Source: Escherichia coli
Lineage (GTDB): Bacteria > Pseudomonadota > Gammaproteobacteria > Enterobacterales > Enterobacteriaceae
Direction: 5' to 3' (one strand)
NCBI RefSeq assembly: GCF_022846255.1
Contig: NZ_AP025682.1
DNA: 64,000 nt
Shown: positions 50,301-56,300 of the stretch, in pieces
Layout of the letters: each line of letters opens with the position of its first letter
Position numbering within the stretch: the stretch's first letter is position 1
Position numbers: made by a program

Positions 50301-53300
50301 CAGATGCCATTTGGCAGCAAAAGGGCCTTCGGGCAATAAACGTGATGTACAACCCGGCATATCTGTTACTCCCTGAAAGTAAAAGGCCCCGGTCATAATG
50401 ACCGGGGCCTGAAGGGGAGTGACCTGATTATCAGAAAGTCACGTTCAGTGTGGCCTGACCGTTATAACCTTCAGCGCTGCTGCCGCTGACGCTGTGGGCA
50501 TAACCGGCCTGAACGCCCAGGGTGATATTTTCCCGGACACGGGCTTCCAGTCCGGCCTGCAGGTCCAGTGACGTGCCATTCTGTGAGGGTGAGAACGTCA
50601 TGTTACTCCCGGCTGCGGCTGTTCCCATGCTCATGTCACCCCGTGAGCTGAAGGTGCGGATAACAGAAGGCTGTACCCACCAGTTCACCGGCAGTTCACG
50701 CACACTGTGTTTTGCACTGTCGCGCAGGGTGTCACGGGATGAGGTGCCTTTACCAAAGTTCATATCGTTGTGGCTGCCCAGACGGAAGCCGGCACGCACA
50801 TGTTGTGCACTGCCATGCCCGAACTTCACATAACCGGCGTTATCCTGGCCGTCATCCAGGGAGAGTCCCTGCCAGGTGTACTGCAGTTGTGGCTCCAGCA
50901 TCAGATTGTCAGTGATACTGAAGGGCAGACCTGTTTCCAGTGAGCCCAGCCAGCCCCAGCCCCGGGCGCGGAAGTCGTTATTGTCCGATGACGCTTTCAT
51001 GCTGTGGCGGGTTCCCTGTGCCACAATGTCAGCCCACAGGCCGGAGGACGTGTGTACCAGATTCAGGTATCCGCCCAGACTGCCGGCATCATCCCGGACC
51101 GTGCCGGCACGGGAGCCGTCATCATCCTTAACATCAACGGAAGAATGGCCTGCAGCACCATACACTCCTGTCGTCAGTGACATACCGGCAACCTCTGTTC
51201 TCAACAGGTCACCCTCCAGACGGACGAGGCCATAGCTGCCGCTGCTTTCCGGCGTGGCCCCACGGGCAATACCGCCGTTGTTATCGTGACCGAGATGACC
51301 GCCCTGAATGCTGAGACGGATGCTGTTATTTTCACCGTTTACACCGGTCTGATGGCTGCGGGAGCCTGCCAGAATCCGGTCATAGTCCATTGCCTGTGTC
51401 AGCATGGAGGCATACAGGGGGACTTCTGCACGATAAGCATTTTCACTGCGCAGGTACCAGTCTTCATCGCTGTCACGGTTCAGGGTGTAGTTAAAGGCGC
51501 CGGCCTGAAGCGGGCGACTCAGGGCAAACGCACCTTCTTCTGTGGTGGCACCATTCTGTGCATCCACAACCCGGATACCCTGTCCGGAGGTTGCCACCCC
51601 GAGGTTACTGTTTCCGACATTTGTAAATGCAAGCCAGGTTTTGCCGGTTGCCTGACCACCATTAATCACCAGCTGGTCAGAGGCATTGCTGCCATCAAGG
51701 CGAACACGCATATTGATGGTGCCACCCTGACCGGTGAGGTTACTGGTGGTCAGTTTATGGAACGTTACCGGGGAGGCGCCTTTTGCAACAGCACGGCTCA
51801 GTACGGCATCCTGTGTCATCTGAGTATCAAAGTGAATCTCCCCTGCGTTAACAATATCGCCGGTACTGACCACATCGCCATTCAGTACCATGCTGGCGCC
51901 TTTACTGAGCTGTGTTCTGCCACTCAGACTTCCCCCGGCAGCCAGCGTCAGTGTTCCGCGATGTCCGACAGTGGTGTTGCCTGCCTGTCCCCCGGCATTA
52001 ACCGTAAAGCTGCCGCCATTTTCCAGCAGCAGGCCGCTGGCCTGACCAGATATGCCATCAATACTGAACCTACCGCTGGCATTGGTCCCCTCAACAGTGG
52101 CACCACTGTCTGCAATCAGGGCACCACCGGATGTCATGGTGACACCGGTTGCCTTACCGCCGGCAGACACTGCCAGGGTACCGCCGTCATCCACCCGTGT
52201 TTTCTGCGCTGAATGGCCCTCCAGTACATCCAGGCGACCGCCGGACTCCAGAACAACGCCGTCAGCCTTACCGTTTTCCACCGTGAAATTGCCCAGACGG
52301 TTGCTGCCGGTGACGGTTGCCGCCGTACTGGTGACCAGTGCGCCGCCCTGCTTCAGGGTGACATTCGTGGCTGTACCACCGGCGTTCACCTGCAGTTTAC
52401 CTTTCTGGTTAACGGTGGTGAAATCCGCCAGACCACCTTCCTTGATAATCTGCCAGCCGTCACTGTTAACAACAGTGTCAGATGCTGTACCTCCGTTGTG
52501 CACATACTGGTACCCCCCATTCAGCGTGGTATCCAGTGCGTGACCATGTACAGTCTGGTCGCCGCCGGCATAAACCACAGTGGTATTTGCCGTTCCTTCA
52601 GCAGCCACAATCTGACGACCATTTTTATTGATGGTGGTGCGTACGGCATCTCCGTAGACGGTCTGCCCGGTATCACCATTTTCCGCATCCGGTCCTCCTT
52701 CCGCGCCAGTATTCACAACCGTGTCGGTTGCCATTGCGCCGGATTTGACGGCCTGCCAGCCCTTCTCATTAATGACGGTACCCGTTGCAATCCCGCCTTC
52801 ATGTACCCACTGCTCACCGCCGTTCAGAGTGGTGTTCACTGCCTGCCCCTGAAGGCTCTGTCCGCCTCCGGCCCTGATAACCGTGTCTGAAACGCTTCCT
52901 CCGGCATTCACTCTCTGAAGACCACCACCGGTGACAGTAGTGTTGTTGGCGATACCGCCATTTTGTATCCATTGCCCGCCGGTATTGGCCTCGTTATCTG
53001 GCCCATACTCCAGACCGGTACTGATGGTCATTCCGTTGGCTGTACCGAAGACAATCTGGTTGTCATGATTTTCCAGTGCTCCGCCGCTCACGGTTTCTCC
53101 CGCCTGTACAACCGTGTCAGCAGCCAGTACCGGGAGTGATGTGACAGCAGCAAGAGACAGCGCAACCGCCACACCGGCGCGTTTTCCCCGTGAGCGGGCC
53201 AGTTCGGAGGCCACCACCAGGGTGCCCGTAATGTGATTCCATACCAGCCTGTAGCTGGTGTTCAGATGTCGTTTCATCAGCTTTTCCTTACAGAGGGTGA

Positions 53301-56300
53301 ATAAAAAAGCCGGTACCCACAAATGTGGATACCGGCAGGTACAAAACAGCATGGTCAGATAAAGTGGTTTTTCCCGGACATAAATGCTTCCCCTCTCTCA
53401 TCCGCCTGAGAAGTATCAGTCCGTTGTGTGCAATTCCGTTCTGCATGATGAAGAGATTCAGCTGCCTTTTCGCAGGCCATTAACCACTATAAACGATCGA
53501 TGGTGACGATCGATACCTGTTTTATCGATCGTTTTATTCTATTAATAACAAGGCAGCCACGCAAGAGAAACAGGAGGAGTATGAGGGGTTTGTGTCATGT
53601 TTTCAGTTGGTTAACGCAATGTAATCAGGCATTTCCTCTGGCAGAGTGTTCAGAAGAAAATCCAGTTCCATACCGCGCGGGCAACAGAGACCACGGTGTC
53701 ACGGACGGCACGCAGAACCGTACGAGCCACAGAGGCAACACAGACGCTCTCCGCCGTGTCAAATATCCGGTCCACCGCACCGGTAAACTGTTCACGGGCC
53801 TGCCCCCGGACAGATTCCGTGCACAGCTCGTCCTGCAGGCGGGTCATCAGGGGACTGGCGGCATGGTCGGGAAGTGCTGTCATGAGCGCACTGACCAGCG
53901 TATCCAGTTCCCAGCCGGTGCGGGCCGATACGGCCACAACCGGATGTACGGGCCGGAACAGCCGGAATACCGCATCTGTTTTCTCACGAATGTTCTGTTC
54001 CTGTGCGGGAGAAGGCTGAATACCTGCCATATCCCATTCATGGCAGGGCTCCGTTTTGTCGGCCTGCGTCACCACAAACAGCACCTGCTGATGTCCCCGG
54101 TGCAGGATGTGTCGCCAGAAATAGTCATCCACAGACAGGGCCCGGTCATCGGCTTTAATCAGCCACAGTACCAGGTCAAGTTCAGGCAGAATGTCACGGT
54201 ACAGGGCTTCATACTCTGCATCCCTGTCCCGGCTCTCGCCCACCCCGGGCAGGTCAGTGATAACCATGCTGTGACCATGGCCACTCAGACGGAAGCGCTG
54301 CACTTCCCGGGTGCCGGCGTGAACATCACTGACCGGGGTGACCTCCCCCTGAAACAGTGCATTACAGAGTGAGGATTTACCGGCCCCGCTTTTTCCCATA
54401 ATGCCAATCACGGGTTCGTGGCTGGTGAGTTTGCGCAGATGTTCCAGGATGTGACGGGAAAGTGAGTAAGGCAGGGAGGAGAGCGGTTTTTCAATTGCCT
54501 CAATGGCATCAGACGGATTCATACATGTATTCCCGGTGAAAAAAGACAAAACCCCGCGCACCGGAAAGGTGGCGGGGGGATTCACGGAGATAATATCTGC
54601 CTGAAATTATTTGGAATGCAGGTATATGTGGCTGATTTGTATCAGCTAATGAGTACAGGTCTGAATCTAATCTGACAGTCCGCTCTGTGCCAGGAGCGGA
54701 CATTGTTTTCCAACTATTACCTAAGCCTGCGAACCATCTCATCTTCACCCCTTAAATTCTCAATGTATCGATAACCGCTCGTAGGGCGGGTGACACATTG
54801 CGGTGCGGATAATAGATATATGAACCCTCCAGGCGTTGGCTGTAGCATTGCAAAACTCTGATTAGCGCCCCCTGTTCTATATCATCAGACACTAATTCCT
54901 CCGGAACATAAGCCAGCCCCAGACCTAGCCTTGCGGCTTTGGCTTCCATATAACTGTCAGCAAAGGCCCATTGTCCCTGAGGCTGATGGGTGATCTTTTT
55001 ACCGTCCTGATTGAGTTCCCAGGCATACAGACTGCCGTCGCCGAACTGGTAAGCGATGCAGGGATGACCTACTAAATCGGTGGGGGTTTGTGGAAATCCG
55101 TAGCGCTGAAAGTGCCCGGGCGTGCCGACAACAGCCATCTCCATATCGGGCGAAATGCGCACCGCAACCATACCGCTATCCACTTCCGAGCCCAGACGTA
55201 TACCGGCATCGAAGCGCTCAGTAATAATATCGACAAACCGGCTTTCGCTGATGAGCTCCAGCCGAATATCCGGGTATCGTTGTTTAAACACCGCCAGCTT
55301 CGGCAGCAGCACTTTATCAATGGCGTGCTGGCTCGCATTAATTCGGACCGTACCCGATGGTGTATGGCGATAATGGGCCAGCGTGGCAAGCCCCATATCT
55401 AAGGCGTCAAATCCAGATTCGACGTTTCGATATAGTAACTCGCCGGCATGGGTGAGCGATAACTTGCGCGTGGTGCGTACCAGAAGCTGCACGCCCAGTC
55501 GCTCTTCCAGCTCGCGCACTGCACGGCTAATTCCTGACTGCGCCAGGCCAAGCCTCTGCGCGGCGGCGGTAAAACTCCCTTCTCGCACGACCTGCATAAA
55601 CAGATAGAGATCGTTATAGTTTTCCCGTTTCGCCATCATCCTTCCCCTGCTGCATCACAATTCAGAACAATATGTTATTAATCTTAGCATTTTTTACCCT
55701 CTAATTAGCACTATTAATGCTAACTATAATGTGCGCGTTGCAACAAAGCACAGCAGTGTTATCCGTATGAAACCAGTATCTGGCACATTTTATGAGGGGG
55801 ATTTTGATGACTGCTTTCACCCAAAAATTGACAGCCGCGATATCCACCATGCTGTTATGCGTATCATTAAGTGGAGTCACAAATATGAGTTACGCTGATA
55901 CAACCAATCCGAACGCGCCCGTTTCGCAGGTCGAGAAATGGGATAAAACTTTTGCTGAGAGCACGAAAGTTGATCACCGTAAGGTGACCTTTCCGAACCG
56001 GTACGGGATCACCTTAGTCGGGGATCTCTATATACCGAAGGATCGTGGCGATCGCAAGATGGCAGCAATTGCTGTTAGTGGCCCCTTCGGGGCGGTGAAA
56101 GAGCAATCCAGTGGCCTGTATGCGCAGACGCTGGCTGAACGGGGGTTTGTCACTCTGGCTTTTGACCCTTCATACACGGGTGAAAGCGGCGGCTACCCGC
56201 GAAACGTCGCATCTCCGGATATCAACACCGAGGATTTCAGCGCGGCGGTTGATTTCTTAGGCCTGCAAAAAGAGGTGGATCGCAACCGTATCGGGTTGCT

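What the first reader, a model, noticed from the sequence alone, without database searches (positions are those of the whole stretch)
53278..53649. Antigen 43 phase-variation switch (GATC triad) is intact
Three GATC sites spaced 13 and 19 bp apart sit in the leader of the autotransporter gene, the architecture of the Dam/OxyR epigenetic switch. This predicts heritable ON/OFF expression of this island-borne Ag43 allele.
Basis: partly seen in the sequence, partly recalled or inferred. Interest (0 to 1): 0.4.

Follow-up and report, generated by a model that had tools for sequence, protein, structure and literature searches.

The report
Known Ag43 Dam/OxyR switch, intact
The three GATC sites upstream of this E. 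coli adhesin gene are the textbook methylation-controlled on/off switch of Antigen 43, here in its commonest natural sequence variant with every recognisable part in place, so the finding is correct but ordinary.

Summary
GATC sites start at 53495, 53508 and 53527, 13 and 19 bp apart. They are the only GATCs between 52500 and 54600. They lie in the intergenic region upstream of a full-length, minus-strand Ag43/Cah-family autotransporter gene (53277..50431).

A loose GATC cluster is not rare, but the exact GATC-N15-GATC-N9-GATC pattern occurs once in the window and in 0 of 100 shuffles.

The triad matches the characterised agn43 switch. In K-12, CFT073 agn43a and agn43b, EC958 and 120 of 126 natural alleles, the GATCs sit at the same three positions after an identical -10 hexamer (TAGAAT). 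In EC958 the published transcription start, 228 bp upstream of the ATG, is exactly the G of the first GATC.

Two OxyR half-sites (8/10 and 7/10 matches) lie 32 bp apart. They cover the -10 hexamer, the start site and all three GATCs. GATC and OxyR-contact positions vary about 20-50 times less than neighbouring positions.

The 253-nt leader matches Rfam IS102 (IsrC) and ends in a strong terminator.

Caveats: this "Cah-type" operator differs from K-12 between GATC-I and GATC-II. I found no direct test of that type, and this allele has a minority T-to-C change in one half-site.

Verdict: already known, low interest.

The parts
53559..53564 (-). Putative -35 hexamer TTGCGT (3/6 match to TTGACA), 17 bp upstream of the -10 hexamer
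   Evidence: Read from the sequence. TTG is invariant across 77 distinct alleles. The consensus promoter scan did not call it, so this assignment is inferred.
53536..53541 (-). -10 hexamer TAGAAT of the agn43-type sigma-70 promoter
   Evidence: Identical in K-12, CFT073 agn43a/b, EC958 and nearly all of 77 distinct alleles. It lies 5 nt upstream of the start site mapped in EC958 (PMC4807369).
53528..53542 (-). OxyR half-site A, ATAGAATAAAACGAT (8/10 to ATAGnTnnnAnCTAT). It overlaps the -10 hexamer, the start site and GATC-I.
   Evidence: Consensus scoring. Scores 8/10 in 76 of 77 distinct alleles and 7/10 in the other; specified positions have a minor-allele fraction of 0.005.
53527..53530 (-). 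GATC-I. Its G (53530) is the inferred transcription start (+1).
   Evidence: In EC958 this G is exactly 228 bp from the ATG, which equals the 5'RACE start site of PMC4807369.
53508..53511 (-). GATC-II (+20..+23), overlapping the 5' edge of half-site B
53496..53510 (-). OxyR half-site B, ATCGTCACCATCGAT (7/10), bracketed by GATC-II and GATC-III, 32 bp from half-site A. Position 6 is C (53505); most alleles have T.
   Evidence: A 13-bp GATC pair bracketing one OxyR half-site, and half-sites 32 bp apart (the 'reduced OxyR' geometry), are described for gtr and opvAB (PMC2909390; PMC4856963).
53495..53498 (-). GATC-III (+33..+36). It was never lost in 126 loci.
53296..53532 (-). Leader RNA matching Rfam IS102 (IsrC), the 5' untranslated region of the Ag43 mRNA
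   Evidence: cmscan 70.7 bits against a gathering score of 46, E = 3.3e-11, full model 1-206. It is 253 nt from +1 to the ATG; K-12-type alleles measure 220-228 nt.
53303..53336 (-). Intrinsic terminator in the leader: a 12-bp stem (8 G-C pairs), 4-nt loop and T6 run, ending 25 nt before the ATG
   Evidence: Terminator scan. It is the most stable element of the leader fold and is kept in the centroid structure. It is conserved in K-12. PMC5389530 cites Wallecha 2014 that flu expression is controlled by antitermination of IsrC.
53275..53289 (-). Shine-Dalgarno AAGGA and the ATG start codon (53277..53275) of Ag43
   Evidence: RefSeq annotates the same MKRH start in 99.9-100% identical loci.
50431..53277 (-). 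Ag43/Cah-family autotransporter adhesin, 948 aa, intact
50384..50410 (-). Strong intrinsic terminator 21 nt after the Ag43 stop. No yeeR-irmA genes follow, so the switch controls Ag43 alone here.
   Evidence: Gene order compared with CFT073 and EC958.

Best explanation
This is the promoter and operator of an Ag43/Cah-family adhesin gene, and it works as the classical Dam/OxyR epigenetic phase switch. A sigma-70 promoter (-35 TTGCGT, -10 TAGAAT) starts transcription at the G of the first GATC (53530, minus strand). An OxyR tetramer binds two half-sites 32 bp apart (-12..+3 and +21..+35). This covers the -10 hexamer, the start site and all three GATCs. Binding blocks RNA polymerase (OFF) and shields the GATCs from Dam. 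If Dam methylates the GATCs first, OxyR cannot bind and the gene is transcribed (ON). Each replication round makes hemimethylated DNA and reopens the Dam/OxyR competition, which gives heritable but reversible ON and OFF lineages. In ON cells the transcript must still read through a strong intrinsic terminator at the end of the 253-nt IsrC-like leader before reaching the Ag43 coding sequence. Shown here: the anatomy, its homology to tested alleles and its conservation. Inferred: OxyR binding, differential methylation and switching for this particular operator subtype.
For: The exact GATC-N15-GATC-N9-GATC architecture is unique in the window and absent from 100 shuffles. The GATCs sit 11, 30 and 43 nt after the first base of the -10 hexamer TAGAAT (that is +1, +20 and +33 from the start site), as in K-12 (L001), CFT073 agn43a/b (L010, L011) and EC958 (L134). 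In EC958 the G of GATC-I is exactly 228 bp from the ATG, matching the published 5'RACE start. In the same strain, deleting oxyR raises agn43 mRNA 121-fold (PMC4807369). In a sample anchored on the distant leader terminator, and therefore blind to the operator, 120 of 126 loci keep all three GATCs and none lost more than one. Across 77 distinct alleles the minor-allele fraction is 0.006 at GATC positions and 0.005 at OxyR-specified positions. It is 0.11 at the unspecified 'n' positions, 0.28 in the -35/-10 spacer and about 0.2 in the flanks. Half-sites score 8/10 and 7/10 at the 32-bp spacing described as canonical for reduced OxyR (PMC4856963). The gene is a full-length Ag43 equivalog. The leader matches Rfam IS102 and has a conserved terminator. 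The mechanism is described in PMC3764049, PMC13337833, PMC4872104 and PMC2909390.
Against: I found no experiment on this operator subtype ('W-type': GATCGATAAAACAGGTATCGATC between GATC-I and GATC-II). Every tested allele I could check is K-12-type. The W-type lacks the central CTAT element: the alternative 22-bp-register half-site scores 2/10 here against 6/10 in K-12. This allele also has C instead of the consensus T at position 6 of half-site B, a state found in 5 of 58 distinct W-type alleles. OxyR affinity, and so the switching bias, may therefore differ. A pair of half-sites scoring 7 or more is not rare by chance; about 0.6 are expected per spacing in 64 kb, and two others were found inside coding regions. 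The -35 hexamer matches only 3/6, and the consensus promoter scan called nothing. dam and oxyR are not in the window.
Confidence: 0.85

Rival explanations
1. The architecture is conserved but this operator is a weakened or biased switch. The diverged centre (no CTAT) and the T-to-C change in half-site B would lower OxyR affinity. The gene would then be mostly or permanently ON, or would switch at rates very different from K-12.
For: The 22-bp-register half-site scores 2/10 against 6/10 in K-12, and half-site B scores 7/10 against 8/10 in most alleles. In Salmonella opvAB, single-nucleotide changes in OxyR half-sites abolish phase variation (PMC4856963).
Against: W-type operators are the majority form. 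A W-type-like region covers at least 80% of the query in 3433 of 5426 complete genomes, and W-type accounts for 58 of 77 distinct alleles. They conserve the GATCs and OxyR-specified positions as tightly as the K-type does, which a dead operator would not be expected to do. Half-sites A and B at the 32-bp spacing are unaffected by the central divergence.
Confidence: 0.1
2. The main product of this promoter is the terminated leader RNA, an IsrC-like small RNA. Ag43 would be made only when an unknown antitermination signal is present. ON/OFF methylation states would then gate the small RNA more than the adhesin.
For: Full-length Rfam IS102 match. A very strong terminator lies 25 nt before the ATG. 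PMC5389530 states that flu expression is controlled by antitermination of IsrC.
Against: This adds a layer to the switch and does not replace it. In K-12 and UPEC, oxyR deletion alone gives strong Ag43 and agn43 mRNA expression (PMC3764049; PMC4807369), so read-through is substantial. The middle of the leader is poorly conserved between the two types, and the window leader's fold is only weakly better than shuffles (z = -1.84).
Confidence: 0.04
3. The GATCs are incidental. They would be palindromic ATCGATCG repeats kept for a 5' hairpin of the leader RNA, or sites for SeqA binding, with no OxyR/Dam switch.
For: The ATCGATCG repeats form the first hairpin of the Rfam model and of the predicted folds. 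Loose GATC clusters are common by chance.
Against: The hairpin partners differ between the types: GATC-I with GATC-II in the window fold, GATC-II with GATC-III in K-12. Yet all three GATC positions are fixed. Conservation also extends upstream into the untranscribed half-site A and the -10 hexamer. The experimental literature shows Dam and OxyR dependence in homologous alleles.
Confidence: 0.01

Closest known systems
E. coli K-12 agn43 (flu) regulatory region, the prototype Dam/OxyR switch
   Same: Same flanking genes (yeeP-like GTPase, then Ag43). Identical 17-bp core AATAGAATAAAACGATC. Same GATC positions (+1, +20, +33). Same half-site A, a near-identical half-site B frame (ATCG.....ATCGAT), and the same leader terminator and ribosome-binding site.
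   Different: The sequence from +5 to +16 is unrelated: AATATCTATTTT in K-12, GATAAAACAGGT here. The -35 hexamer is TTGCGT here and TTGTCC in K-12. The leader is 253 nt against 222 nt, with a diverged middle; only 35% of the region aligns by megablast. The protein is 948 aa against 1039 aa.
UPEC agn43 alleles of EC958 and CFT073 (agn43a c3655, agn43b c1273)
   Same: Island-borne next to kps/pheV, in the same kind of module. The GATC triad is in the same register. OxyR repression and the transcription start are shown experimentally in PMC4807369.
   Different: Those alleles carry the K-12-type operator and a 224-228-nt leader, and they head an agn43-yeeR-irmA operon. Here yeeR and irmA are absent and a terminator follows Ag43.
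EHEC O157 cah and other 'Ag43/Cah family' 948-aa alleles
   Same: Same W-type regulatory region (91% identity over 471 bp in O157 SS52, L007), the same GATC triad and the same protein class.
   Different: O157 has the K-12-like TTTAT centre in half-site B (8/10). I found no phase-variation experiment for these alleles; PMC2808357 only infers it.
Salmonella gtr and opvAB Dam/OxyR switches
   Same: OxyR half-sites carrying GATCs, a 13-bp GATC pair bracketing one half-site, the 32-bp 'reduced OxyR' spacing, and independence from oxidation state (PMC2909390, PMC4856963).
   Different: Those systems have three or four half-sites with alternative occupancy, and OxyR also activates. Here there is one two-half-site operator over the promoter, acting only as a repressor site.
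IsrC / IS102 small RNA (Rfam RF00124)
   Same: Full-length match, with a 5' GATC-palindrome hairpin and a 3' terminator.
   Different: Two internal segments are longer and unrelated in sequence (41 against 35 nt, and 63 against 35 nt).

Membership tests
agn43-type Dam/OxyR phase-variation switch | Three GATC sites at fixed positions (+1, +20, +33; spacing 19 and 13 bp) just downstream of the -10 hexamer | tested here: met
   Same register as K-12, CFT073 and EC958.
agn43-type Dam/OxyR phase-variation switch | Sigma-70 promoter whose transcription start is the G of the first GATC | tested here: inconclusive
   The -10 hexamer TAGAAT is identical, and the EC958 5'RACE start maps to this G. The -35 hexamer matches only 3/6, and the start site was not measured for this allele.
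agn43-type Dam/OxyR phase-variation switch | OxyR-binding sequence overlapping all three GATCs and the promoter | tested here: met
   Half-sites score 8/10 and 7/10, 32 bp apart, spanning -12..+35, and are conserved across 77 alleles. This is a sequence-level test only.
agn43-type Dam/OxyR phase-variation switch | Controlled gene is an Ag43-family self-associating autotransporter | tested here: met
   NF033177 equivalog, 1987 bits against a cut-off of 1200. Also.
agn43-type Dam/OxyR phase-variation switch | OxyR binds unmethylated but not methylated DNA; GATCs unmethylated in OFF cells and methylated in ON cells; oxyR mutant locked ON and dam mutant locked OFF | not testable with these tools
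   Needs gel shift or footprinting, methylation calling and mutants. Shown for K-12-type alleles only (PMC3764049, PMC4807369, PMC13337833).
agn43-type Dam/OxyR phase-variation switch | Host encodes Dam and OxyR | not tested
   Neither gene is in the 64-kb window. The window is E. coli chromosome, where both are core genes (general knowledge). The LysR-family gene at 55639..54752 is YafC-like, not OxyR.
IsrC / IS102 leader RNA (Rfam RF00124) | Score above the Rfam gathering threshold, with the 5' hairpin and 3' terminator | tested here: met
   70.7 bits against 46, model positions 1-206. Terminator confirmed.
gtr/opvAB-type OxyR switch with alternative half-site occupancy | Three or more OxyR half-sites at 32-bp intervals, allowing two mutually exclusive binding modes | tested here: not met
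   Between -50 and +60, apart from registers overlapping B (+17 scores 7/10), only half-sites A and B score 7 or more. There is no third site 32 bp further on.
pap-type Lrp/Dam switch | Two GATC boxes about 102 bp apart within Lrp sites | tested here: not met
   The only GATCs between 52500 and 54600 are the three within 36 bp.

The most novel reading that the evidence does not exclude
The 'Cah-type' (W-type) operator may be a functionally distinct version of the switch. It keeps the two outer half-sites at the 32-bp spacing used by reduced OxyR. It has lost the central CTAT element that, in K-12-type operators, gives the contracted 22-bp register expected for oxidised OxyR (2/10 against 6/10). 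If so, oxidised OxyR might fail to hold this operator. Ag43/Cah expression or switching rate would then respond to oxidative stress, unlike K-12 agn43. The T-to-C polymorphism in half-site B of this allele would tune the bias further.
Probability: 0.1. Interest if true: 0.45.

Novelty: already known. Interest (0 to 1): 0.12.

Why it matters
It matters little beyond annotation. The result confirms that this island-borne Ag43/Cah allele should be treated as phase-variable. Any phenotype, transcriptome or vaccine-antigen study of the strain must therefore control for ON and OFF lineages (the point made in PMC3764049). The one useful by-product is a population-level view. Two regulatory-region types share an invariant core: the -10 hexamer, the start site, three GATCs and two OxyR half-sites. 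The more common type has apparently never been tested directly.

Tried and rejected
1. MAFFT alignment of the window against K-12 mis-registered the ATCGATCG repeats and suggested a 13-bp indel. Anchoring on the -10 hexamer showed that the GATC spacing is identical.

2. I first assumed the window was strain A0 34/86, because the 471-bp region is 100% identical. This was rejected: elsewhere identity is 96-98% and capsule region 2 differs.

3. I expected CFT073 agn43b or EC958 to carry the window-type operator, which would have given direct experimental support. All three alleles checked are K-12-type.

4. The primary papers could not be retrieved: Wallecha 2002 and 2014, and Kaminska 2010. My recollections of their footprint (-16 to +42) and of the start at the G of the first GATC are therefore not used as evidence. 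The start site rests on PMC4807369.

5. Methylome papers on ST131, O145, O111, UTI89 and single-molecule phasing gave no locus-specific data for Ag43.

6. I asked whether the island's own LysR-family regulator is an OxyR paralogue. It is YafC-like.

7. The in-frame upstream ATG at 53352 was considered as a leader peptide crossing the terminator. It is not conserved in K-12 and RefSeq does not annotate it.

8. OxyR half-site pairs elsewhere in the window (32532, 35766) lie inside coding regions and occur at about the chance rate.
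Full report
**What is there**

The finding's range, 53278-53649, is exactly one intergenic region on the minus strand. 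Upstream lies a yeeP-like GTPase gene (54585..53650; Pfam MMR_HSR1). Downstream, a 948-aa autotransporter starts at the ATG at 53277.

The protein has an ESPR signal peptide, AIDA repeats, an autochaperone domain and a beta-barrel. It matches the NCBIfam equivalog 'Ag43/Cah family autotransporter adhesin' end to end (1987 bits, cut-off 1200). It is about 96% identical to the solved Ag43-UTI89 passenger 7KO9.

GATC sites start at 53495, 53508 and 53527, 13 and 19 bp apart. No other GATC occurs between 52500 and 54600.

**Is it more than chance?**

A loose cluster is not. The window holds six triads within 40 bp, and 80% of random placements give a triad within 32 bp. The exact pattern GATC-N15-GATC-N9-GATC is different. 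It occurs once in the window and in none of 100 shuffles. The real evidence, however, is homology.

**Homology to the characterised switch**

I anchored the comparison on the -10 hexamer TAGAAT (53541..53536). The GATCs then begin 11, 30 and 43 nt after its first base. The same holds in K-12 (L001), CFT073 agn43a and agn43b (L010, L011), EC958 (L134) and every RefSeq allele fetched.

In EC958 the G of the first GATC lies exactly 228 bp from the ATG. That is the 5'RACE transcription start reported by Moriel et al. (PMC4807369). The same paper reports a 121-fold rise in agn43 mRNA in an EC958 oxyR mutant, and derepression of the co-transcribed IrmA in CFT073 and 83972 oxyR mutants. By homology, +1 in the window is 53530 and the leader is 253 nt long.

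**Operator anatomy**

I scored the region against the OxyR half-site consensus ATAGnTnnnAnCTAT.
- Half-site A, ATAGAATAAAACGAT (-12..+3; 53542..53528), scores 8/10. It overlaps the -10 hexamer, the start site and GATC-I.
- Half-site B, ATCGTCACCATCGAT (+21..+35; 53510..53496), scores 7/10. It is bracketed by GATC-II and GATC-III.

Two published precedents fit this layout. A 13-bp GATC pair enclosing one half-site is the arrangement described for Salmonella gtr (PMC2909390). The 32-bp spacing between A and B is the one called canonical for reduced OxyR in opvAB (PMC4856963).

An OxyR tetramer bound here would cover the -10 hexamer, the start site and all three Dam targets. That is the competition mechanism described for agn43 (PMC3764049, PMC13337833, PMC4872104).

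**Population test**

I needed a sample that does not presuppose the operator, so I scanned metagenome contigs for the leader terminator, about 190 bp away. With the window and the ten RefSeq alleles already fetched, this gave 126 usable loci and 77 distinct operators.

- All three GATCs are intact in 120 of the 126 loci.
- No locus lost more than one GATC, and GATC-III was never lost.
- The minor-allele fraction is 0.006 at GATC positions and 0.005 at OxyR-specified positions.
- It is 0.11 at the unspecified 'n' positions of the half-sites, 0.28 in the -35/-10 spacer and about 0.2 in the flanks. The permutation p-value for the GATC positions is below 1/20000.

The switch elements are therefore under strong purifying selection. 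The window carries the consensus state at all of them but one.

**Two regulatory types**

| | K-type | W-type (window, O157 cah) |
|---|---|---|
| -35 hexamer | TTGTCC | TTGCGT |
| Sequence +5 to +16 | AATATCTATTTT in K-12 (other K-type alleles differ at a few positions) | GATAAAACAGGT |
| Leader length | 220-228 nt | 252-254 nt |
| Protein length | always 1039-1040 aa | 943-950 aa in 49 loci (948 aa in 46), 1039-1040 aa in 15 |

K-12, CFT073 agn43a/b and EC958 are K-type. The mixed protein lengths show that W-type operators and protein classes recombine. A region like the window's covers at least 80% of the 471-bp query in 3433 of 5426 complete E. coli genomes, so the window's type is the commoner one.

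The divergence between the types falls mainly in the central spacer between the two half-sites. It removes a CTAT element. In K-type operators this element gives a weaker half-site in the 22-bp register (6/10); here that register scores 2/10.

**Leader**

Positions 53532..53296 match Rfam IS102 (IsrC) over the full model (70.7 bits, gathering score 46). The leader ends in a 12-bp, GC-rich hairpin followed by a T6 run (53336..53303), 25 nt before the ATG. PMC5389530, citing Wallecha et al. 2014, states that flu expression is controlled by antitermination of IsrC. ON-state transcripts therefore face a second checkpoint, and I cannot identify its signal.

**Context**

The gene sits in a CP4-44-like module: GTPase, Ag43, DUF932, an antirestriction protein, RadC, DUF987 and CbeA/CbtA. 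An IS110 remnant and the kps capsule genes lie next to it. 'Island-borne' is therefore right.

Unlike CFT073 and EC958, this locus has no yeeR-irmA genes after Ag43. A strong terminator follows the stop codon (50410..50384). The window is not strain A0 34/86, despite 100% identity over the regulatory region. The Ag43 locus is 99.9% identical to those of several urinary, canine and wildlife isolates.

**Caveats**

- I found no experiment on a W-type operator. The EAEC 042 genome paper already notes that both allelic groups have three GATCs with similar spacing, 'suggesting' phase variation (PMC2808357).
- This allele has C where most alleles have the consensus T at position 6 of half-site B (53505). 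Only 5 of 58 distinct W-type alleles share this state. In opvAB, single-base changes in OxyR half-sites have large effects (PMC4856963), so the switching bias here could differ.
- Half-site pairs scoring 7 or more are not rare by chance, so the motif match alone proves nothing.
- The primary agn43 papers were not retrievable. I did not use my recollection of them as evidence.

**Verdict**

This is a known system in a known, RefSeq-annotated allele. The finding is useful for annotation and of low interest. The only mildly novel reading left open is that the common W-type operator behaves differently from the K-12 paradigm, for example by binding only reduced OxyR. I rate that at about 10%.

Noticed in passing
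Loci L012-L131 and window 53495-53565: Ag43 regulatory regions fall into two types that share an invariant 17-bp core (AATAGAATAAAACGATC). K-type operators always precede 1039-1040-aa proteins. W-type operators mostly precede 948-aa proteins, but 15 loci have 1039-1040 aa. One allele has a W-type -35 side joined to a K-type downstream side. Recombination therefore seems to occur within or near the conserved core.
   Followed up: partly
window 53505 (minus strand, +26): This allele has C instead of the consensus T at position 6 of OxyR half-site B, a state shared by 5 of 58 distinct W-type alleles. It might shift the ON/OFF bias.
   Followed up: partly
window 53352-53278 (minus strand): An upstream ATG is in frame with Ag43 and adds 25 codons that run straight through the leader terminator hairpin. 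It is not present in K-12 and RefSeq does not annotate it. It is probably coincidental.
   Followed up: partly
window 52500-54600: The three switch GATCs are the only GATCs in 2.1 kb, where about 8 would be expected at the window's density. The 5' part of the Ag43 gene and most of the GTPase gene are GATC-free.
   Followed up: no
window 56007-56053: Four GATCs lie within 47 bp inside the alpha/beta-hydrolase ORF (55792..56943, +). This is the densest GATC cluster in the window. No regulatory context is evident.
   Followed up: no
window 32532-32568 and 35766-35812: Two other pairs of OxyR-like half-sites occur: 9/10 + 7/10 at 22-bp spacing, and 8/10 + 7/10 at 32-bp spacing. Both lie inside capsule region-2 ORFs, at about the chance expectation. 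The first has a GATC 9 bp upstream (32523).
   Followed up: partly
window 31900-36400: Capsule (kps) region 2 is a rare type. Only 3 of 5426 complete genomes cover at least 80% of it (TUM1886, Br_112_kylling, 2013C-4282). It includes a 1117-aa ORF (32037..35390). The source strain itself is not in the collection.
   Followed up: partly
window 54752-55639 (minus strand): A LysR-family regulator lies two genes upstream of Ag43, divergent from an alpha/beta hydrolase and an MFS transporter. It is YafC-like (197 bits, below the cut-off), not OxyR. Its target is unknown.
   Followed up: partly
window 50104-50430: The yeeR-irmA-DUF905 genes that follow agn43 in CFT073 and EC958 are absent. Ag43 is followed by a strong terminator (50410..50384) and then DUF932.
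   Followed up: yes
L018 1504-1539: One metagenome contig has the exact leader-terminator hairpin but no agn43 operator upstream. A LacI-type regulator-like sequence sits there instead. It may be a chimeric contig, or the terminator reused in another context.
   Followed up: no
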